Source: Candidatus Gastranaerophilales bacterium (GTDB lineage Bacteria > Cyanobacteriota > Vampirovibrionia > Gastranaerophilales > Gastranaerophilaceae). Taken from it: a stretch of DNA of 64,000 nucleotides. Positions within the stretch are counted from its first letter, which is position 1, and each line of letters opens with the position of its first letter. A program made the translations under genes and the position numbers. Location: the NCBI GenBank assembly GCA_944324235.1, contig CALUVN010000001.1, positions 331-64,330 on the forward strand, in the 5' to 3' direction. This document shows, one piece after another, positions 11,410 to 17,139 of the stretch. The notes under the pieces were generated by a model that saw only the letters and a list, made by a program, of their open reading frames with translations, was not told the origin of the DNA and made no database searches.

Positions 11410-12708
11410 CTAAAATTCAAACGTATCGTTTTCATTCATTTCTTCATATTCTTCAGGGGTGACGGTGTCAGGTGCTTGAGCTTCCGTTTCAAGACCGCGG
11501 CGCAGGAGGTCAGGCTGCTTTTTGATTAACTTTTTGTCTGCGGAAACTATATCCCTGTAGAGTGATGTTGTGATTAATTGAATTGTTTTTTCAGTCGGCG
11601 CTCCTTCTTCGCCTACTTTTTCCTGAACTTTATAGCTTGCCCAGTCGTCAGGAAGTTCGGATATTTTTGTATAATCCAGATTTTCTCCGAGGCGCTTGTC
11701 TATTTCGTTTTCAAGAATGTTTGTGACGTATTCCTTTTGTGATTCAAAGTGGCACGGTTCATAGATTGTTGTGCCGATAACCTCTTCAGGGTCGCGTTTT
11801 TCGTATTTTTTGAAAAGGTCTGCCGCAACTTGAAGGTGGCCGAGTTCAAATGCAAGAAACTCTTCCCATACCTGTTTCAGTTTCAAATCGGATTCGTCTT
11901 TATAGCAGTTATAGTAATTGCAGACTTCCGTAAATTCGTGAACAAGTAATTTTTCAAACTTGGATTCTGTCGGGTCTATCAAAGATTCATACATTGTAAC
12001 GTGTTCTTCTTCGACATCACAGATTTCGGCATAAGTTCTTCTCAAATCGTCGTTGCCGTACATAAATCCGTGTTCCGCATAATAATTGTGGGTTTGCTGT
12101 TCACCTGATACAAGCGTAAGGATATTAACTTTTGTCTGCGGAGAAGCTGTTTCTTTATTATATGCCTTTCTCAATCTTATTTTGTTGTCATTGTGGTGAT
12201 TCTGGGTCGGGCGGCCTATTACAACATCTGTCATTCCCTGCAAAATATCATTAGGGTTTTGGCCTTCAATCATATATTGCCACTGGCTGTACCTGTATAG
12301 GTGGTCAAAATCCTCAAGCAGCCCGAAGTTAAAAGTTTCTCTTACATAATCATCGGGTTCGTTTTGCGCAAGCCATGCGGTGAGGTCAACAGCAACCTGT
12401 TCGTAGCCGAGAGTTGTATTCAAAACGGATTGGTCTGCCGGCCCGAACCAGTTTACCGTGGTCTGCTGCATGTCTTCTAAGCGTCTGATACAGGCAAGTG
12501 TTTTTCTCAAATCCAAATCGTCGCATAATCTCGCCATACAGTGTTTGTAGCCCCATGCTTCCGTTTCTATGCCGTTCATAAGAATTTGTCTTGTTCTTGT
12601 GTAGCAGTCTACTTCTGTTTTGTTAAACGGACGCTTTACGATATCGTGCCATGTTCTGATTTGTTTTTCTATGGAAATTCCTTTTTCTTTAAGCGGATTG
12701 AAAGTCAT
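11410..12708 (-). CDS. Hypothetical protein, possible ferritin-like di-iron fold
   Basis: 432 aa. Several E..H-type ligand candidates (GIETEAW, GEQQTHNYY, DVEEEHVTMYE, FELGHLQ). No firm family assignment. Confidence 0.35.
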   Translation of the reverse strand: MTFNPLKEKGISIEKQIRTWHDIVKRPFNKTEVDCYTRTRQILMNGIETEAWGYKHCMARLCDDLDLRKTLACIRRLEDMQQTTVNWFGPADQSVLNTTLGYEQVAVDLTAWLAQNEPDDYVRETFNFGLLEDFDHLYRYSQWQYMIEGQNPNDILQGMTDVVIGRPTQNHHNDNKIRLRKAYNKETASPQTKVNILTLVSGEQQTHNYYAEHGFMYGNDDLRRTYAEICDVEEEHVTMYESLIDPTESKFEKLLVHEFTEVCNYYNCYKDESDLKLKQVWEEFLAFELGHLQVAADLFKKYEKRDPEEVIGTTIYEPCHFESQKEYVTNILENEIDKRLGENLDYTKISELPDDWASYKVQEKVGEEGAPTEKTIQLITTSLYRDIVSADKKLIKKQPDLLRRGLETEAQAPDTVTPEEYEEMNENDTFEF

Positions 12709-13198: not shown

Positions 13199-13690
13199 AT
13201 GAATTTTATAAAAGTTGAAAAAGAAGAGATTCCCGTGCTTGCAGCTCTTGCGTCAGATATCTGGCATGAATACTGGGGCATAATCCTTTCTGATGAACAG
13301 ATTGAATATATGGTCGAAAATTTTCAATCCGAAAAAGCTATGAAAAAACAGATTTCGGAGGAGAATTATTCGTACTGTTTTATTAACGATAACGGGGAAA
13401 ATATAGGCTATTTCGGCATTTCACCGAAAGACGGGTATATGTTTCTGTCCAAATTATATATAAAAAAAGAATTCCGCGGGCAGGGAACAGGGCGCAAAGC
13501 TTTTGAAGAAATTAAACGCCTGAGCGCAGAGCAGGGTTTTAATAAAATAAGGCTTACCGTAAACAAATACAACTCAAATACCATAAAAGCCTATGACCGT
13601 TGGGGGTTCAAAACTATAGATGCGGTTGTAACCGACATTGGTCAAGGCTTTGTAATGGACGATTATATTATGGAGTATTCGCTTTCTTAA
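13199..13690 (+). CDS. GNAT family N-acetyltransferase
   Basis: Acetyl-CoA motif A FRGQGTGRKAFEEI and a C-terminal AYDRWGF. Confidence 0.8.
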   Translation: MNFIKVEKEEIPVLAALASDIWHEYWGIILSDEQIEYMVENFQSEKAMKKQISEENYSYCFINDNGENIGYFGISPKDGYMFLSKLYIKKEFRGQGTGRKAFEEIKRLSAEQGFNKIRLTVNKYNSNTIKAYDRWGFKTIDAVVTDIGQGFVMDDYIMEYSLS

Positions 13691-15290
13691 AAGCTTCGAA
13701 TGCTACGGGAAGATTTTCCCGAATGTCCGGACGGATTGCCTGCGGCGGGGTTTCTAAAGGTTTTTGGTGGTTCTTTTTATATTCGGCAACCGCAATATTG
13801 AATAACGGCACCATAAACCCGAGTGCTACGGTTGAATAAGCAAGGCCTGCCATGTGTGCGACATTAAGTTTCCACATGTTTTTAAACGCAAAATCTTTAC
13901 CTTTTGCGGCAATTTCCGTATGAGATTTGAGGGTTATGTCGTTTAGCCAGTGTTTAATGCCTTTGCCTTCTTTATTTATATTGAACAGAAATTCGCGTTT
14001 TTTATCCAGAAGATTTGCCGTGCCTTTTGCTGCGAAGCCGCCGAGTACAAGCCAGTTAAGAAATCCGAAATAATCTCTTGTTACGGATTCTCTCAATTCG
14101 TTATCATTGTCTGCAGCCATGAATCTGCCTACGATTGTCGAAGTGTAGACGGTTTTTATTGCGTTTCCGCTTGATATAGGGCCGGTGAATTCCAGTTTTC
14201 TGATAAAATCTTTCGGATTTTTAATTCTCATAACCCCGATTGCCATAGCAATCATACCTGCGCTTGCTGCGAGTTTACGGAAGATAAATCCTCCGGTTTT
14301 CTTTTCTTCCTGAGTTTTTCCTGCGACAGCGTTTTCGTAGTCGACTTCTCCGACAAATTTTGTTGAGCCTGTGCGTTTTTTGGTTATCTGACGGTTAATA
14401 TACTGGTTAGTTAATCCCAGAACCGATGCCAGACTCAGCGCGCCCAAGATTTTTACTTTATTTACGGTTTTGATTTTATTCAGGGCAGATTCAATATTTA
14501 AGTTTTTATTTGTCAGAACATCTTTTCCCATATCGTATGTATCGCGGATTATATTGGAAAGAGTTGCGTTCATCTTATATTTGCCTGAAGTGACATCCAC
14601 GCTGCGGTTTACGCCCAGTGCATTTGTTACTCTGGCTTCTATCAGGCGGAAAAGGTTCTTTTTATCTTTAGAAGAGATATTATCGTTTTTGATAATTTCT
14701 GTCATCGTATCAACGATACCGTCGGAAGTTTTTAGTTTTTCGCTGATATTTTTGTAAGCCGGATTTTCCCATTTTATGTTATCCCAGCTTTTTTCGTCAA
14801 TCCAGTCGATATTTTTCCAGTTAATTTCGTTCCAGCGAGCGATTTTGCTGCCGTCGTGCCCGCTCATTCCGTTCATAACGTTGTTTACATATCCGCGTAA
14901 ACCGTCGCGGCTTTCGTCCCACGAATTTTTCAGCACCATAAGCGAATCATTGGAAAACCAGCTTTTGTTATTAATTTTTATTTCAGGATTTATATATTTA
15001 TTGGCAAGTATTCCGATAGGAATTGCCAGAAGTCCTGCAGACAGACAGTTGATAAATGTTCCGCAGATTTCGCGGAAGAAGGTTTCTGAACCTGCGTATT
15101 TGTTTCTTTTTTTTGTATCAATATAAGTTCTCGGGGCTACCATTGCGCCGACATCAAGAAGTACGGCGTTTGCCATTTCGTTTGTGTCGAGTGTGCGGAA
15201 TGTATTTGTAATAACTCCGTCCAGAGGTCCTTTAAATGTAGGTTTGTACTGTTGCTGCCGTTTTCCGTAATTTTTGACTGTTAAATCCAT
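13668..15290 (-). CDS. Orphan multi-pass membrane protein (540 aa), paralog of 15802..17139
   Basis: N-terminus is ...QQYKPTFKGPLD. It has about 5 hydrophobic segments and a large Asn/Lys/Trp-rich loop. GRFMAADNDNELRESVTRDYFGF aligns with GYFGAAKDRGKLEVQEVATRVPVI of the divergent neighbour. RBS GGAG lies upstream of ATG 15290. Confidence 0.6.
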   Translation of the reverse strand: MDLTVKNYGKRQQQYKPTFKGPLDGVITNTFRTLDTNEMANAVLLDVGAMVAPRTYIDTKKRNKYAGSETFFREICGTFINCLSAGLLAIPIGILANKYINPEIKINNKSWFSNDSLMVLKNSWDESRDGLRGYVNNVMNGMSGHDGSKIARWNEINWKNIDWIDEKSWDNIKWENPAYKNISEKLKTSDGIVDTMTEIIKNDNISSKDKKNLFRLIEARVTNALGVNRSVDVTSGKYKMNATLSNIIRDTYDMGKDVLTNKNLNIESALNKIKTVNKVKILGALSLASVLGLTNQYINRQITKKRTGSTKFVGEVDYENAVAGKTQEEKKTGGFIFRKLAASAGMIAMAIGVMRIKNPKDFIRKLEFTGPISSGNAIKTVYTSTIVGRFMAADNDNELRESVTRDYFGFLNWLVLGGFAAKGTANLLDKKREFLFNINKEGKGIKHWLNDITLKSHTEIAAKGKDFAFKNMWKLNVAHMAGLAYSTVALGFMVPLFNIAVAEYKKNHQKPLETPPQAIRPDIRENLPVAFEAFKKANTP

Positions 15291-15310
15291 GTTCTTCTGA
15301 TTTCTCCATT

Positions 15311-15339
15311 AAAAAAGTCCCGCCATGCCGGCGGGACTT
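15311..15339 (-). terminator. Leader (attenuator) terminator 20 nt upstream of the 540-aa gene start
   Basis: Minus-strand RNA reads AAGUCCCGCC-loop-GGCGGGACUU (10 bp, GC-rich) followed by a U6 run, then AAUGGAGAAAUCAGAAGAAC-AUG. Confidence 0.6.
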
Positions 15340-15379
15340 AAATTATCTTATAAACTTTTGCTGCATCAAACTTTTCTCA

Positions 15380-15472
15380 TCACACGCAAAGCTTTAAAAT
15401 AAGTCCCGTCGGAAACTTATTCGAAGAGGAGGAGGATGAGGATGAAGTTGTTAATGCGTATAATTTTTTCAT
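15380..15472 (-). CDS. Candidate leader peptide, 30 aa, with eight consecutive Ser codons
   Basis: My translation is MKKLYALTTSSSSSSSSNKFPTGLILKLCV*. SD AAAGGGA lies 6 nt upstream. Ser codons TCA TCC TCA TCC TCC TCC TCT TCG occupy 15445-15422. The ORF is below the track's length cut-off. Confidence 0.5.
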   Translation of the reverse strand: MKKLYALTTSSSSSSSSNKFPTGLILKLCV

Positions 15473-15496
15473 TAATTTCCCTTTTCTATGTTTTAT

Positions 15497-15526
15497 ATAA
15501 TACTCCAACAAAAATTTTTTTGTCAA
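15497..15526 (-). promoter_or_regulatory. Sigma70-like promoter for the Ser leader
   Basis: On the minus strand: TTGACA (15526-15521), 18-nt spacer, TATTAT (15502-15497). The predicted TSS near 15490 includes the leader SD. Confidence 0.45.
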
Positions 15527-15554
15527 TAGGTGTAGTGTATACAATTTCTATATA

Positions 15555-15581
15555 TTGACACGGGAATTTCTTTTTTATAAT
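15555..15581 (+). promoter_or_regulatory. Sigma70-like promoter for the Met leader
   Basis: TTGACA (15555-15560) and TATAAT (15576-15581). The spacer is only 15 nt, shorter than optimal. It sits back-to-back with the minus-strand promoter. Confidence 0.4.
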
Positions 15582-15635
15582 CTCTAATTAAGAAAAAAGG
15601 GAAAAAATATTTTGAATATACGTTCTTTTGAAAAA

Positions 15636-15704
15636 ATGACAGATATGATGATGGCTATGCAAATGATGATGATGTGCAAGTCAGCTTCAGTCTGCCGAAT
15701 GTGA
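15636..15704 (+). CDS. Candidate leader peptide, 22 aa, 10 Met
   Basis: My translation is MTDMMMAMQMMMMCKSASVCRM*. The SD is weak (GAAAAA). Codons 15-20 form one arm of a 15-bp helix with the terminator 5' arm. Confidence 0.4.
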   Translation: MTDMMMAMQMMMMCKSASVCRM

Positions 15705-15739
15705 TGAACATTTTTCAAAATTAACAGATTGGAGCTGAC
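15680..15739 (+). promoter_or_regulatory. Candidate antiterminator helix
   Basis: 15680-15694 gtcagcttcagtctg pairs with 15725-15739 cagattggagctgac over 15 contiguous bp (13 Watson-Crick plus 2 G-U). It competes with the 7-bp terminator stem for 15733-15739. Confidence 0.45.
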
Positions 15740-15766
15740 GGTAATTAAACGGGTCAGCTTTTTTTA
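15733..15766 (+). terminator. Leader terminator upstream of the 445-aa membrane protein gene
   Basis: agctgac (15733-15739) and gtcagct (15753-15759) form the stem, followed by T7. The heptamer gtcagct is duplicated at 15680-15686. Confidence 0.5.
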
Positions 15767-15801
15767 TGCGTGTATTACAGAATTATAAGGAAGATATTAA
15801 A

Positions 15802-17139
15802 ATGACATTTGATTATAACGTAACATTTACTGCTAAAACCCCTCACGGTGTAAATAAAATTTCAAAAGAGCTGCTGGATAATTTAACCCCTAAAAAGAGA
15901 TTTCTGGCAAAAGTTATAGATATGAAAGAAGGCGATTCCGGACTTTCACATTCGCGATTTGCTCAGGCAACGGCGACAAACTGGCTGCCTAAGGCTGTTT
16001 TTGCAAGAAGTCTGGCAGATTTGTCCGAGATAAGTTTTCTTGAAGTGTTTGAATCGGCCCTGTTTTTCTATCTGCCGTCACTGATGGGTGAATATCTTTC
16101 CAGAAGAAAAATATTTTCAAAATTTCTTCCGAAAGACCTCAGGAAAGATGTATCAAAATCCGTAGCGGAGCTTGCAAATAATCCTGCGGCAGGAAAGCTT
16201 TTGCCGGTCAAAGCAGGTATCGTGTTAAGTTGTGCGGCAATTCCTGCGGCAGAGTACGGTTTGAGTTTTGCTAAGAATTTGTTTACCCAGAAACTTTTCA
16301 ACAAAGCGGATTTCAGCAATGTTGTAAATCTTGATAAAGAGAAAAAAGAAGACCCTAAGGTGCATGAAAGAGTGGAAAAAAGTGCTGTTTCACATCTTAA
16401 AAAGGCAGGAATTGTTTCAGCCGCCGCGTTTGGTGCAAGTATAGCGCTTGCGGCAGCCGGACGTAAAAGCAGGGCGGTGCAAAAAGCCAGCGAAATTTTC
16501 CTGAATCCGGGGGCAAAAATTTACAACCTGCTTGAAAAAACAGGAGTAAAATCCAATGGGCTTAAAAATTTCTTAGACACTTATGTCAACCTTGATTTTG
16601 CGAGAAAATCGGACGGTTCTCTTGCGCTTGGCAACGGACAGCTTGCCGTAACAGTGTTATCGGGCGTCGCAGGTTATTTTGGCGCTGCAAAAGACAGAGG
16701 TAAACTTGAAGTACAAGAAGTTGCAACAAGAGTACCGGTGATTGCACTATATACAATTTTCGGGAGTACACTGTTTGACGCAGGGTTTAAAAAATTGCTC
16801 CAAAAGAACGGCAAGTACCCTGAAATTCTTTCAAAAGACTTGAATGTCGCATCACTTAACGATATCCCGAAAATTGCCAAACAAATTGCAGGCGATGACA
16901 AAAATCTTTATAAACAAAAAATTGGTGAATTATTTAAAGGCAAAGCAGTAATTGCAATGGTTCCGTTTTTGTTCAGTCTGCTGGTTGTAGGCGGGCTGCT
17001 TGCGTTGATTTCACGCCTTTGGACACAGTACAGATATAACCGCAGTATAGCAGATAAACCGCCGGTACAGCCTGCTTTCAATAACAGTTTCGGAACAGGC
17101 AGCAATATATTAATCAATCAAATCCACAAGGCCGGTTGA
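15802..17139 (+). CDS. Orphan multi-pass membrane protein (445 aa), paralog of 13668..15290
   Basis: Start moved to ATG 15802 (MTFDYNVTFTAKTP), preceded by AAGGAAG. The track start at 15766 lies inside the terminator T-run. About 6 hydrophobic segments. The C-terminal TM followed by TQYRYNRS resembles AEYKKNHQ of the paralog. Confidence 0.6.
   Translation: MTFDYNVTFTAKTPHGVNKISKELLDNLTPKKRFLAKVIDMKEGDSGLSHSRFAQATATNWLPKAVFARSLADLSEISFLEVFESALFFYLPSLMGEYLSRRKIFSKFLPKDLRKDVSKSVAELANNPAAGKLLPVKAGIVLSCAAIPAAEYGLSFAKNLFTQKLFNKADFSNVVNLDKEKKEDPKVHERVEKSAVSHLKKAGIVSAAAFGASIALAAAGRKSRAVQKASEIFLNPGAKIYNLLEKTGVKSNGLKNFLDTYVNLDFARKSDGSLALGNGQLAVTVLSGVAGYFGAAKDRGKLEVQEVATRVPVIALYTIFGSTLFDAGFKKLLQKNGKYPEILSKDLNVASLNDIPKIAKQIAGDDKNLYKQKIGELFKGKAVIAMVPFLFSLLVVGGLLALISRLWTQYRYNRSIADKPPVQPAFNNSFGTGSNILINQIHKAG

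What the first reader, a model, noticed from the sequence alone, without database searches (positions are those of the whole stretch)
15555..15801. Methionine-run mini-ORF (10 Met in 22 codons) embedded in an antiterminator/terminator switch upstream of the paralogous membrane protein
On the plus strand, TTGACA-15 nt-TATAAT is followed by the ORF 15636-15704, MTDMMMAMQMMMMCKSASVCRM.

- Codons 15-20 (15680-15694, gtcagcttcagtctg) can pair over 15 contiguous bp (2 G-U) with 15725-15739 (cagattggagctgac).
- 15733-15739 is also the 5' arm of a 7-bp hairpin plus T7 terminator (15733-15766).
- The real gene start is 36 nt further on (15802, SD AAGGAAG).
- The heptamer gtcagct occurs twice (15680 and 15753), competing for the same partner.

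A ribosome stalled early in the Met run would leave the long helix free to form, giving readthrough. A ribosome translating to the stop would disrupt it, giving termination. I know of no described Met-codon leader attenuator; Met control is normally by SAM riboswitch, T-box or MetJ.

Caveats: the SD is weak, the promoter spacer is short, and stalling at the last Met codons would partly mask the helix, so the polarity of the response is uncertain. An alternative reading is a stand-alone Met/Cys-rich peptide (metal-binding or a RiPP precursor) with its own terminator.
Basis: partly seen in the sequence, partly recalled or inferred. Interest (0 to 1): 0.8.

Follow-up and report, generated by a model that had tools for sequence, protein, structure and literature searches.

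The report
Methionine-codon leader peptide transcription attenuator
A tiny upstream gene packed with methionine codons, coupled to a terminator/antiterminator RNA switch, most likely lets a gut relative of cyanobacteria turn on an uncharacterised membrane protein when methionine runs short; this amino-acid specificity was not found described for this classic type of control.

Summary
On the + strand a promoter, SD and sORF (15612/15636-15704, 10 Met codons), a 15-bp antiterminator (15680-94:15725-39) and a hairpin+T7 terminator (15733-65) precede a 445-aa orphan membrane protein gene (ATG 15802).

The window comes from a Gastranaerophilales (Melainabacteria) genome. In 73 of 77 evaluable loci (the window plus relatives with enough upstream DNA), and in deeply divergent GC-rich subfamilies, a Met-run sORF (median 9 Met) sits in the same place. 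Terminator and antiterminator both show compensatory changes. The antiterminator 5' strand always lies inside the sORF, 4-22 nt after the Met run. ORF-internal indels are all multiples of 3.

An independent Met-run leader with the same geometry precedes the trans-sulfuration/sulfate-assimilation operon in Flavobacterium. The regulated protein family is Met- and Cys-poor.

Best reading: a classical ribosome-mediated attenuator with Met regulatory codons, in which Met limitation gives readthrough.

- The start is probably TTG 15612, which has a good SD.
- 'Paralogous' to the 540-aa neighbour is not demonstrable.
- A 1:2 anti-antiterminator is possible but unproven.

No Rfam family or paper describing it was found. 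The protein's function, possibly Met or sulfur amino-acid uptake, is inferred only.

The parts
15555..15560 (+). -35 promoter hexamer TTGACA
   Evidence: Read directly. A TTGACA lies at an equivalent distance upstream of the sORF in the relatives that were displayed.
15576..15583 (+). -10 region: TATAAT 15576-81 (15-nt spacer) or TAATCT 15578-83 (17-nt spacer)
   Evidence: Which hexamer is used cannot be decided from sequence alone.
15597..15602 (+). Shine-Dalgarno AAGGGA for the leader ORF, 9 nt before TTG 15612
   Evidence: 57 of 65 loci have an in-frame start with an AAGGA-like SD 4-12 nt upstream. Most close relatives of the window use TTG.
15612..15704 (+). Leader sORF, (M)NIRSFEKMTDMMMAMQMMMMCKSASVCRM*, 30 codons from TTG.
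   Evidence: The sORF is conserved in 73 of 77 evaluable loci. ORF-internal alignment gaps are multiples of 3 in 104 of 104 cases, against 61 of 146 after the stop.
15636..15674 (+). Regulatory Met-codon region: AUG at 15636, 15645-53 (x3), 15657, 15663-74 (x4)
   Evidence: Met runs have a median of 9 Met codons across relatives. They are also present in divergent GC-rich subfamilies.
15640..15661 (+). Putative segment 1: 5' strand of an anti-antiterminator hairpin that pairs with 15675-15694
   Evidence: Predicted by RNAfold. The terminator state (-36.0) and antiterminator state (-37.2) are nearly iso-energetic. On A3 the hairpin is 72% paired without covariation, so this part is inconclusive.
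15680..15694 (+). Segment 2: 5' strand of the antiterminator, inside the sORF (codons 15-20 of the short reading)
   Evidence: It is 88% paired in 10 close relatives, with 6 pairs showing double changes, against 23-45% in slid controls.
15725..15739 (+). Segment 3: 3' strand of the antiterminator. Its 3' part (15731-39) is also the 5' arm of the terminator.
15731..15765 (+). Intrinsic terminator: stem 15733-39/15753-59 (7 bp, or 9 with two G-U pairs), 13-nt loop, T7 run 15759-65
   Evidence: The stem is 98.9% paired with 4 double-changed pairs in A3 and 92.7% paired with 7 double-changed pairs in A2. A terminator is found 18-32 nt after the stop in 65 loci.
15787..15793 (+). SD AAGGAAG of the regulated gene
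15802..17139 (+). Regulated gene: 445-aa orphan, all-helical protein with roughly six hydrophobic (putative transmembrane) segments judged by eye from the sequence, specific to Melainabacteria, Met- and Cys-poor
   Evidence: No Pfam or NCBIfam family. AF2 pLDDT 76.5, and no PDB fold match with E below 0.2. 451 close homologs and 230 representatives. Met content is 0.9% against a window median of 2.3%. No transmembrane predictor was run.

Best explanation
This is a ribosome-mediated (leader-peptide) transcription attenuator of the classical trp/his type, with methionine codons as the regulatory codons. It controls a monocistronic gene for a Melainabacteria-specific membrane protein.

How it works:
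1. Transcription starts about 10-30 nt downstream of the -10 region (near 15590) and a ribosome initiates on the leader ORF (TTG 15612 or ATG 15636).
2. If Met-tRNA(Met) is scarce, the ribosome stalls in the run of 9 AUG codons (15636-15674). Its leading edge stops short of segment 2 (15680-94). Segment 2 then pairs with segment 3 (15725-39) as soon as segment 3 is made. This sequesters the 5' arm of the terminator, and RNA polymerase reads through into the gene at 15802.
3. If Met is plentiful, the ribosome runs through segment 2 to the stop codon at 15702. It occupies or separates segments 2 and 3 while the polymerase makes 15753-65, so the 15733-39/15753-59 hairpin plus T-run forms and transcription ends.
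4. Without any ribosome, a possible 1:2 hairpin (15640-61 with 15675-94) may also favour termination. This step is uncertain.

Shown: the sequence features, their conservation, covariation of both helices, the fixed geometry and preservation of the reading frame.

Inferred: that Met-tRNA charging is the signal, the polarity, and that the regulated protein serves methionine or sulfur amino-acid acquisition.
For: 1. The anatomy is at the stated coordinates. The antiterminator is -25 kcal/mol, z = -6.
2. Conservation: 73 of 77 evaluable loci, down to about 43% protein identity, have a Met-run sORF with a median of 9 Met codons. A hairpin plus T-run lies 18-32 nt after the stop in 65 loci.
3. In 64 of 64 loci the best partner of the terminator 5' arm lies inside the sORF. 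It starts 4-22 nt after the Met run and ends before the stop.
4. Covariation:
- Antiterminator: 88% paired with 6 double-changed pairs in A3, and 93% paired with 4 double-changed pairs (37 cells) in A2. Slid controls give 23-52%.
- Terminator: 98.9% paired with 4 double-changed pairs, and 92.7% with 7.
- The stem classes gctgac, gccggtc, gccacct and ctgcct are mirrored by the codons SAS, PTS, GGH and SGS in the peptide.
5. Translation signals: an SD plus in-frame start in 57 of 65 loci. ORF-internal gaps are multiples of 3 in 104 of 104 cases, against 61 of 146 after the stop.
6. Deep conservation: divergent GC-rich subfamilies of the same protein family also carry a Met-run sORF plus terminator (L201, L202, L203, L207).
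7. Independent analogue: Flavobacterium loci L163, L208 and L209 have Met-run sORFs plus a terminator of the same geometry. They sit upstream of two Cys/Met-metabolism PLP enzymes. In L163 these are followed by CysH- and CysD-like genes.
8. The regulated family is Met-poor (median 1.1% against 2.3%) and Cys-poor (0.44% against 1.4%), as expected for proteins made under shortage of those residues.
9. No known RNA family covers the region.
Against: - There are no experimental data: no Term-seq, Ribo-seq or reporter.
- The regulated gene has no recognisable link to methionine. It has no Pfam or NCBIfam family and no structural match.
- In the window and its close relatives segment 2 starts only 4 nt after the last Met codon of the run. 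A ribosome stalled at the last one or two Met codons would therefore mask the part of segment 2 that competes with the terminator. Only stalls at earlier Met codons give clean antitermination.
- A ribosome at the stop codon covers only the 3' half of segment 2, so termination depends on kinetics and sterics that cannot be computed here.
- The 1:2 hairpin lacks covariation.
- Four loci (L038, L045, L060, L078) have an eroded Met run yet keep the terminator.
- Met limitation also affects initiation (fMet-tRNA), which complicates the simple model.
- The conserved CGA-AUG just before the stop is unexplained.
Confidence: 0.72

Rival explanations
1. It is a general translation-stress or antibiotic-sensing leader (as with ermC, bmrCD or topAI leaders). 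Any slowing of the ribosome on the sORF, or a nascent-peptide arrest by the poly-Met sequence in response to a small molecule, opens the antiterminator. Methionine supply is not the signal, and the membrane protein is a stress or efflux function.
For: The architecture (sORF, antiterminator, terminator) is the same as in drug-sensing leaders. The regulated gene is an orphan membrane protein, not a biosynthetic enzyme. Folding suggests that any stall upstream of 15680 would give readthrough.
Against: Only the Met composition of the run is conserved, not a specific peptide motif. Examples are MMMAMQMMMM, MMMQMMMM, MMMMPLMMHSMMM and SMMMCPMPLM. That points to codon-level sensing rather than peptide-level sensing. 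Leaders of the same build precede Met/Cys biosynthesis genes in Flavobacterium. The family is Met-poor.
Confidence: 0.1
2. The polarity is the reverse. A ribosome stalled at the end of the Met run masks segment 2, so the terminator forms and Met shortage turns the gene off. Unimpeded translation and quick release leave segment 2 free to form the antiterminator, turning the gene on when Met is abundant, for example for an exporter.
For: In the window segment 2 begins 4 nt after the last Met codon, so a stall at codons 15669-74 would cover gtcagc. A ribosome at the stop codon leaves 15680-86 uncovered.
Against: In most loci segment 2 starts 12-14 nt after the run, just beyond a stalled ribosome's footprint. 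A starved ribosome stalls at the first Met codons, 25-45 nt upstream of segment 2. The Flavobacterium leaders have the same spacing (11-13 nt) in front of biosynthetic genes, which must be induced by shortage.
Confidence: 0.07
3. It is a stand-alone functional micropeptide (a Met/Cys-rich metal-binding, antioxidant or RiPP precursor peptide) with its own terminator. The complementarity to the terminator is incidental or secondary.
For: The peptide is rich in Met and Cys and often contains His (GGHCC), which resembles Cu(I)-binding motifs. The sORF has a good SD and its own terminator.
Against: The residues after the Met run change with the terminator stem sequence: SAS, PTS, GGH and SGS co-vary with gctgac, gccggtc, gccacct and ctgcct. 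RNA pairing, not the peptide sequence, is under selection there. No maturation or transport genes for a RiPP lie nearby; the neighbours are an orphan membrane protein, carbonic anhydrase, ClpB and GNAT. The sORF-to-terminator-to-gene spacing is fixed.
Confidence: 0.05
4. It is an RNA-only switch (a riboswitch or protein-binding leader) in which the AUG repeats are an RNA motif and the open reading frame is incidental.
For: In the major group the AUG run can pair with CAUUGUUGU, and AAGCCU can pair with AGGUGG. Part of the conservation is therefore structural.
Against: The reading frame, the SD-start and the stop position are conserved. All 104 ORF-internal gaps are multiples of 3. Met runs persist in GC-rich relatives whose RNA context is entirely different. 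No Rfam family matches.
Confidence: 0.05

Closest known systems
Classical leader-peptide transcription attenuators of amino-acid operons (trpL, hisL, leuL, thrL, pheL, ilvL of Proteobacteria; Rfam Trp/His/Leu/Thr/Phe leader families)
   Same: - A short SD-preceded ORF with a run of codons for one amino acid.
- An intrinsic terminator and a mutually exclusive antiterminator.
- The antiterminator 5' strand lies just 3' of the regulatory codons.
- A possible 1:2 hairpin.
- The stop codon lies shortly before the terminator.
   Different: - The regulatory codons are AUG (Met). I found no description of this in Rfam 15 or in the searched literature.
- The host is a non-photosynthetic cyanobacterial relative.
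- The target is a single orphan membrane-protein gene rather than a biosynthetic operon.
- Segment 2 lies wholly inside the ORF.
- The regulatory codon is the same triplet as the standard ATG start codon, although this leader probably initiates at TTG 15612.
Polycysteine uORF attenuators of mycobacteria and predicted Cys-run leaders of Actinobacteria (bioRxiv 10.1101/834739; PMC1262725)
   Same: Short ORFs with runs of a sulfur amino-acid codon upstream of the genes they control. Per its title, the first paper reports them as cysteine-responsive attenuators. The neighbouring 540-aa gene family here carries Cys-run or Ser-run leaders.
   Different: - The mycobacterial ORFs are described in that paper's title as leaderless.
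[quoted passage not shown]
- Here there is a canonical SD, an intrinsic terminator and a covarying antiterminator.
- The amino acid is Met.
Bacteroidetes leader-peptide attenuators (Trp leader; ilvE and hisG leaders mapped in Flavobacterium psychrophilum, PMC9723704)
   Same: They show that leader-peptide attenuation exists outside Proteobacteria. The Flavobacterium Met-run leaders found here (L163, L208, L209) have the same geometry as the window's element.
   Different: That study lists Ile, His and Trp leaders and none for Met. The Flavobacterium Met leaders share no detectable common origin with the Melainabacteria ones; their targets and sequences are unrelated.
SAM riboswitches, Met T-boxes and MetJ/MetR
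   Same: A functional analogy: control of Met-related genes according to Met or SAM status. SAM riboswitches and T-boxes often act by premature termination.
   Different: No aptamer or T-box is present. The sensor here would be the translating ribosome reading Met codons. In Flavobacterium both systems sit back to back: SAM-II on metK and the Met leader on the divergent operon.

Membership tests
Ribosome-mediated (leader-peptide) transcription attenuator | Short ORF with a ribosome-binding site in the 5' leader of the regulated gene | tested here: met
   SD AAGGGA lies 9 nt before TTG 15612. An in-frame start with an SD is present in 57 of 65 loci. The frame is preserved: 104 of 104 ORF-internal gaps are multiples of 3.
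Ribosome-mediated (leader-peptide) transcription attenuator | Cluster of regulatory codons for one amino acid | tested here: met
   10 AUG in 22 codons. The median is 9 Met codons in 73 of 77 loci. The pattern occurs in 0 of 100 shuffles.
Ribosome-mediated (leader-peptide) transcription attenuator | Intrinsic terminator between the leader ORF and the gene | tested here: met
   Hairpin 15733-39/15753-59 plus T7. Detected in 65 loci. Covariation.
Ribosome-mediated (leader-peptide) transcription attenuator | Mutually exclusive antiterminator, placed so that a ribosome stalled at the regulatory codons leaves its 5' strand free | tested here: met
   15680-94 pairs with 15725-39. In 64 of 64 loci the partner lies in the ORF, 4-22 nt after the Met run. 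Covariation.
Ribosome-mediated (leader-peptide) transcription attenuator | Anti-antiterminator (1:2) pairing that includes the regulatory codons | tested here: inconclusive
   Predicted by folding. It is 72% paired in A3 with no covariation beyond shuffles. In A2 there are one-sided changes only, because AUG cannot vary.
Ribosome-mediated (leader-peptide) transcription attenuator | Regulated genes serve supply of the cognate amino acid | not testable with these tools
   The target is an orphan membrane protein. Support is indirect only: Met/Cys-poor composition and analogous leaders upstream of Flavobacterium Met/Cys genes.
Ribosome-mediated (leader-peptide) transcription attenuator | Readthrough increases on starvation for the amino acid | not testable with these tools
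   This needs Term-seq, reporter or in vitro transcription-translation experiments.
Known RNA families (SAM riboswitches, T-box, Rfam leader families) | Match to the covariance model at gathering score | tested here: not met
   No hit in the window. Only sub-threshold noise in 15250-15850. No hit on leaders of relatives.
RiPP precursor or metal-binding micropeptide locus | Conserved core peptide plus adjacent maturation or transport genes | tested here: not met
   The post-Met residues follow the RNA stem sequence. The neighbours are an orphan membrane protein, carbonic anhydrase, ClpB, GNAT and PPIase.
   BLASTP E is at least 5. The HMM of A1 does not hit it. hhalign gives probability 2.6%, E 0.018, with only a colinear C-terminal alignment.
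Known transporter or enzyme families for the 445-aa protein | Pfam/NCBIfam domain or structural match | tested here: not met
   Pfam and NCBIfam give none. Foldseek against PDB gives a best E of 0.23 with TM below 0.2.

The most novel reading that the evidence does not exclude
Methionine-codon leader attenuation is an overlooked, recurrent class of Met sensor. It arose independently in Melainabacteria and in Flavobacterium (met operon).

In Melainabacteria, Met-run and Cys/Ser-run leaders together mark two orphan membrane-protein families as previously unrecognised sulfur amino-acid (Met; Cys/Ser) uptake systems. Those families have no relatives in Pfam or NCBIfam, and the Met-regulated one has no structural match in the PDB.
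Probability: 0.35. Interest if true: 0.75.

Novelty: new member of a known kind. Interest (0 to 1): 0.6.

Why it matters
Leader-peptide attenuators are textbook sensors for Trp, His, Leu, Thr, Phe and Ile/Val. Methionine control is attributed to SAM riboswitches, T-boxes and protein regulators.

A conserved, covariation-supported Met-codon attenuator would extend the classical mechanism to an amino acid that also supplies the initiator tRNA. It would also place the mechanism in a largely uncultured lineage, the gut Melainabacteria.

It gives the first functional handle on an orphan membrane-protein family (230 representatives at 50% identity). By analogy it does the same for the neighbouring Cys/Ser-leader family, and it suggests new sulfur amino-acid acquisition systems.

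The parallel Met leaders in cultivable Flavobacterium make the idea directly testable by genetics.

Tried and rejected
- Rfam at gathering and at E-value thresholds: no known family.
- Pfam and NCBIfam on both membrane proteins: nothing.
- AF2 model plus Foldseek against PDB: no fold match, so function could not be assigned.
- Paralogy of the 445-aa and 540-aa proteins: tested with BLASTP, an HMM, an enlarged HMM and hhalign. Not significant.
- Synteny of the two genes: the 540-aa homolog is adjacent in only 2 of 80 loci.
- 1:2 anti-antiterminator: folding predicts it, but column counts give no covariation. It is left as inconclusive.
- A helix closing the whole sORF (N-terminal codons with the C-terminal CGAAUGxx): seen in single-sequence folds. 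It could not be tested by columns because the N-terminal register shifts in the alignment.
- The conserved CGA-AUG before the stop: I considered a pairing partner or a slow-codon pause. Neither fits all groups, so it remains unexplained.
- Metagenome scan for ATGATGATGCAAATGATGATG: most of the 120 hits were unrelated coding or repeat DNA. Only a handful were leaders.
- Literature searches for a described Met-run leader attenuator found none. The library is incomplete, so absence is not proof.
- Window scan for other amino-acid-run sORFs: only the Met and Ser leaders stand out.
- Neighbourhood annotation: housekeeping genes with no Met metabolism.
Full report
**1. Observation**

- TTGACA at 15555-60, a 15-nt spacer, and TATAAT at 15576-81. 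TAATCT at 15578-83 with a 17-nt spacer is an alternative.
- The ORF 15636-15704, encoding MTDMMMAMQMMMMCKSASVCRM* (10 Met in 22 codons).
- gtcagcttcagtctg (15680-94), complementary over 15 bp (2 G-U) to cagattggagctgac (15725-39).
- A 7-bp hairpin, agctgac 15733-39 / gtcagct 15753-59, followed by T7 (15759-65).
- The duplicated heptamer gtcagct.
- SD aaggaag (15787-93) and ATG 15802.

The Met-codon pattern is unique in the window and absent from 100 shuffles. RNAduplex gives -25.0 kcal/mol for the long helix (z = -6 against shuffles) and -12 kcal/mol for the terminator. The simple terminator scan missed the hairpin only because its loop is 13 nt.

**2. Organism and regulated gene**

The downstream protein (445 aa from ATG 15802) has no Pfam or NCBIfam family.
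- It has 451 close homologs, all hypothetical proteins of Candidatus Gastranaerophilales/Melainabacteria MAGs. The window, at about 37% GC, is therefore from a gut non-photosynthetic cyanobacterial relative.
- An exhaustive profile search finds only 230 representatives at 50% identity.
- The AlphaFold2 model (pLDDT 76.5, pTM 0.71) is all-helical. By eye the sequence has about six hydrophobic segments that could span the membrane; no transmembrane predictor was run. The model matches nothing in the PDB (best E 0.23).
- The gene is monocistronic. A carbonic anhydrase converges on it and ClpB follows.
- The wider neighbourhood is housekeeping, with no Met metabolism.

**3. Comparative test of the sORF**

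I fetched 80 loci encoding relatives.
- In 73 of 77 evaluable loci (the window plus relatives with enough upstream DNA), a Met-run sORF lies upstream of the gene, with a median of 9 Met codons (range 5-13). The stop codon lies about 75-105 nt before the gene start.
- Close relatives read MSDMMMDMQMMMCMSASVCRM. The largest group reads M..NTMMMQMMMMQSL..GGHCC..RMC.
- An in-frame start with an AAGGA-type SD 4-12 nt upstream is present in 57 of 65 loci. The peptide is therefore probably 30 aa, and the 'weak SD' caveat disappears.
- Alignment gaps inside the ORF are multiples of three in 104 of 104 cases, against 61 of 146 after the stop. One caveat applies: gaps within ATG repeats are biased towards multiples of three.

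**4. Comparative test of the switch**

A hairpin plus T-run starts 18-32 nt after the sORF stop and ends 29-55 nt before the gene start in 63 of the 65 loci where it was detected. The two exceptions are upstream copies of tandem leaders. Most of the remaining loci have bulged versions.

In 64 of 64 loci the best pairing partner of the terminator's 5' arm lies inside the sORF. It starts 4-22 nt (median 13) after the Met run and ends before the stop.

| Alignment | Helix | Cells paired | Pairs with changes on both sides | Slid controls |
|---|---|---|---|---|
| A3 (10 close relatives) | Antiterminator | 88% | 6 | 23-45% |
| A3 | Terminator | 98.9% | 4 | 25-60% |
| A2 (47 leaders, major group) | Antiterminator | 93% | 4 (37 cells) | 28-52% |
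| A2 | Terminator | 92.7% | 7 | 30-62% |

The terminator stem falls into distinct sequence classes (gctgac, gccggtc, gccacct, gccgcct, ctgcct, gaccgcc). The codons after the Met run change accordingly (Ser-Ala-Ser, Pro-Thr-Ser/Leu, Gly-Gly-His, Ser-Gly-Ser). It also shows that the C-terminal half of the peptide is shaped by RNA pairing, not by a peptide function.

**5. A possible segment 1**

Folding the window's leader before segment 3 is made gives a hairpin that pairs 15640-61 (covering the first Met codons) with 15675-94. With it, the terminated state (-36.0 kcal/mol) and the antiterminated state (-37.2 kcal/mol) are nearly iso-energetic.

In the major group the Met run AUGAUGAUG can pair, through G-U-rich pairing, with CAUUGUUGU (the His-Cys-Cys codons). 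AAGCCU (Gln-Ser-Leu) can pair with AGGUGG (Gly-Gly). This would account for those conserved residues. However, AUG cannot vary, only one-sided changes are seen, and the A3 count shows no covariation beyond shuffles. I treat the anti-antiterminator as plausible but unproven.

**6. Is methionine the signal?**

Four independent lines point that way.
1. Only the composition of the run is conserved, not a motif. Deeply divergent, GC-rich subfamilies of the same protein family carry Met runs in entirely different sequence contexts, each followed by a terminator:
   - L201: MRFVTPAMMMMPLMMHSMMMCTG...
   - L202: ...FMMMMAMMMTLK...
   - L203: ...TSMMMCPMPLMG...
   - L207: two tandem leaders.
2. A metagenome pattern scan turned up Met-run sORFs upstream of unrelated genes. 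Clearest are the Flavobacterium loci:
   - L163 (89% identical to a F. urocaniciphilum enzyme): MQIVNNKMMMQMMMWKFSAGYSIC* plus a terminator. It precedes two Cys/Met-metabolism PLP enzymes, a CysH-like gene and a CysD-like gene.
   - L208 (F. columnare): MKKYLPKYKMCMMRTSFSRVTIV*.
   - L209: MKRYFKKMMNMMRITFSRVTII*.
   - L208 and L209 precede the same pair of PLP enzymes and lie divergent from metK, which carries a SAM-II riboswitch.
3. These Flavobacterium leaders have the same geometry: segment 2 lies inside the ORF 11-13 nt after the run, and the terminator starts 20-23 nt after the stop. Biosynthetic genes must be induced by shortage, so this supports the polarity 'stall gives readthrough'.
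4. The regulated family is poor in Met (median 1.08%; the window protein has 4 internal Met in 445 residues, rank 4 of 60). It is also poor in Cys (0.44%). The window's ORFs have medians of 2.26% Met and 1.39% Cys. This is the pattern expected for proteins made when those residues are scarce.

**7. Mechanism and its weak points**

A ribosome with an early Met codon in its A site protects about 12-15 nt downstream. That leaves 15680-94 free to capture 15725-39 before 15753-59 is transcribed, so transcription reads through. A ribosome that reaches the stop (15702) covers roughly 15687-15714 and physically separates segments 2 and 3, so the terminator forms.

The weak points are these:
- In the window group segment 2 starts only 4 nt after the run. 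Stalls at the last one or two Met codons would mask gtcagc.
- The ribosome at the stop leaves 15680-86 exposed, so the outcome depends on kinetics.
- Met shortage also limits initiation.
- Four loci have eroded runs (L038, L045, L060, L078).
- The CGA-AUG conserved just before the stop in Gastranaerophilales is unexplained.

**8. Rivals**

- A general translation-stress or arrest-peptide leader, reverse polarity, a functional Met/Cys-rich micropeptide, and an RNA-only switch were all considered.
- Each is disfavoured by the evidence in sections 3, 4 and 6. None is excluded without experiments.

**9. The neighbour and the 'paralogy' claim**

On the minus strand lie a divergent promoter, an sORF (15380-15472, MKKLYALTTSSSSSSSSNKFPTGLILKLCV*) and a strong terminator (15339-15315). 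They precede a 540-aa orphan membrane protein.
- Its relatives carry Ser runs (L002, L210) or Cys runs (L020, L211, L212) in the equivalent leader.
- The two proteins are not detectably related. BLASTP finds nothing, the HMM finds nothing, and hhalign gives probability 2.6% with only a colinear C-terminal alignment.
- The two genes are adjacent in only 2 of 80 loci.
- The pairing of Met leaders with Cys/Ser leaders nevertheless suggests a sulfur amino-acid theme.

**10. Comparison with what is known, and novelty**

In mechanism and anatomy this is a member of the classical leader-peptide attenuator class. All testable defining features are met except the 1:2 helix, which is inconclusive.

No Rfam family covers it. 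Full-text searches found attenuators for Trp, His, Leu, Ile/Val, Thr, Phe and Cys, but none with Met regulatory codons. A Flavobacterium transcriptome study that lists Ile, His and Trp leaders likewise has none for Met. The searched library is incomplete, so prior description cannot be ruled out.

I classify it as a new member of a known kind: a new amino-acid specificity, a new phylum and an orphan target.

**11. Verdict**

- Confidence is about 0.72 for a Met-codon ribosome-mediated attenuator that is induced by Met limitation.
- The transporter role of the regulated protein is an inference, at about 0.35.
- Interest is 0.6.

Noticed in passing
window 15315-15526 (- strand), gene 13668-15290 (-): A divergent twin element lies on the minus strand. 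It has a promoter (TTGACA 15526, TATTAT ending at 15497), an sORF 15472-15380 (MKKLYALTTSSSSSSSSNKFPTGLILKLCV*, eight consecutive Ser) and an 11-bp terminator (15339-15315) plus a T-run. ccgacgggactt inside the ORF can pair with the terminator 5' arm. It sits upstream of a 540-aa orphan membrane protein. In relatives the run is Ser (L002, L210) or Cys (L020, L211, L212).
   Followed up: partly
L163:740-1016; L208:1057-1200; L209:1044-1200: Flavobacterium loci carry Met-run leader ORFs plus a terminator: MQIVNNKMMMQMMMWKFSAGYSIC, MKKYLPKYKMCMMRTSFSRVTIV and MKRYFKKMMNMMRITFSRVTII. They sit upstream of two Cys/Met PLP enzymes. In L163 these are followed by CysH- and CysD-like genes. L208 and L209 are divergent from metK, which carries a SAM-II riboswitch. 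This looks like an independent Met-codon attenuator in a cultivable genus, and it is not in Rfam.
   Followed up: partly
L099:2300-2600, L160, L174; L150:3270-3530; L097:800-960: Other metagenomic Met-run sORFs are followed by a hairpin and T-run, upstream of orphan proteins in GC-richer organisms. Examples are MYRSHSLTAGTCSESSRTMMMQMMMRSMRGLSAA*, MKSFFAFTVATTITMMNMMMQMMMPHRRTVLCEIQ* and MTNQSLMMMQMMMMRLSRGQVV*. The downstream proteins (335 aa and 410 aa) have no Pfam family.
   Followed up: partly
L015, L019, L020 (upstream 450 nt of the gene); L186; L207:1065-1415: Some relatives carry two Met-run leaders in tandem, each with its own terminator, in front of the same gene.
   Followed up: no
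window 15696-15704; equivalent positions in A2/A3: The codons CGA-AUG(-UGU)-stop at the end of the leader ORF are nearly invariant across Gastranaerophilales ('RM*', 'RMC*'). They are absent in GC-rich relatives. No consistent pairing partner or function was found.
   Followed up: partly
L038, L060, L045, L078 (upstream of the gene): These lineages have an eroded Met run in the leader, with only 2-5 scattered Met, yet keep the terminator. They include Candidatus Galligastranaerophilus (L060, L078). Examples are MQDTIMCSL* and MSSLSMNLLTTNMMIQMPFCGLEFRM*. Regulation may be relaxed or altered there.
   Followed up: no
window 15766-15801: The longest ORF of the regulated gene starts at ATG 15766, and database proteins are called at 457 aa. 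That ATG overlaps the end of the terminator T-run and has no SD. ATG 15802 with SD AAGGAAG is the likely true start, so public annotations are probably 12 residues too long.
   Followed up: partly
window 11410-12708 (-): There is another orphan protein here (432 aa, no Pfam). A 432-aa orphan also lies next to a 540-family gene in L210. Whether they are related was not checked.
   Followed up: no
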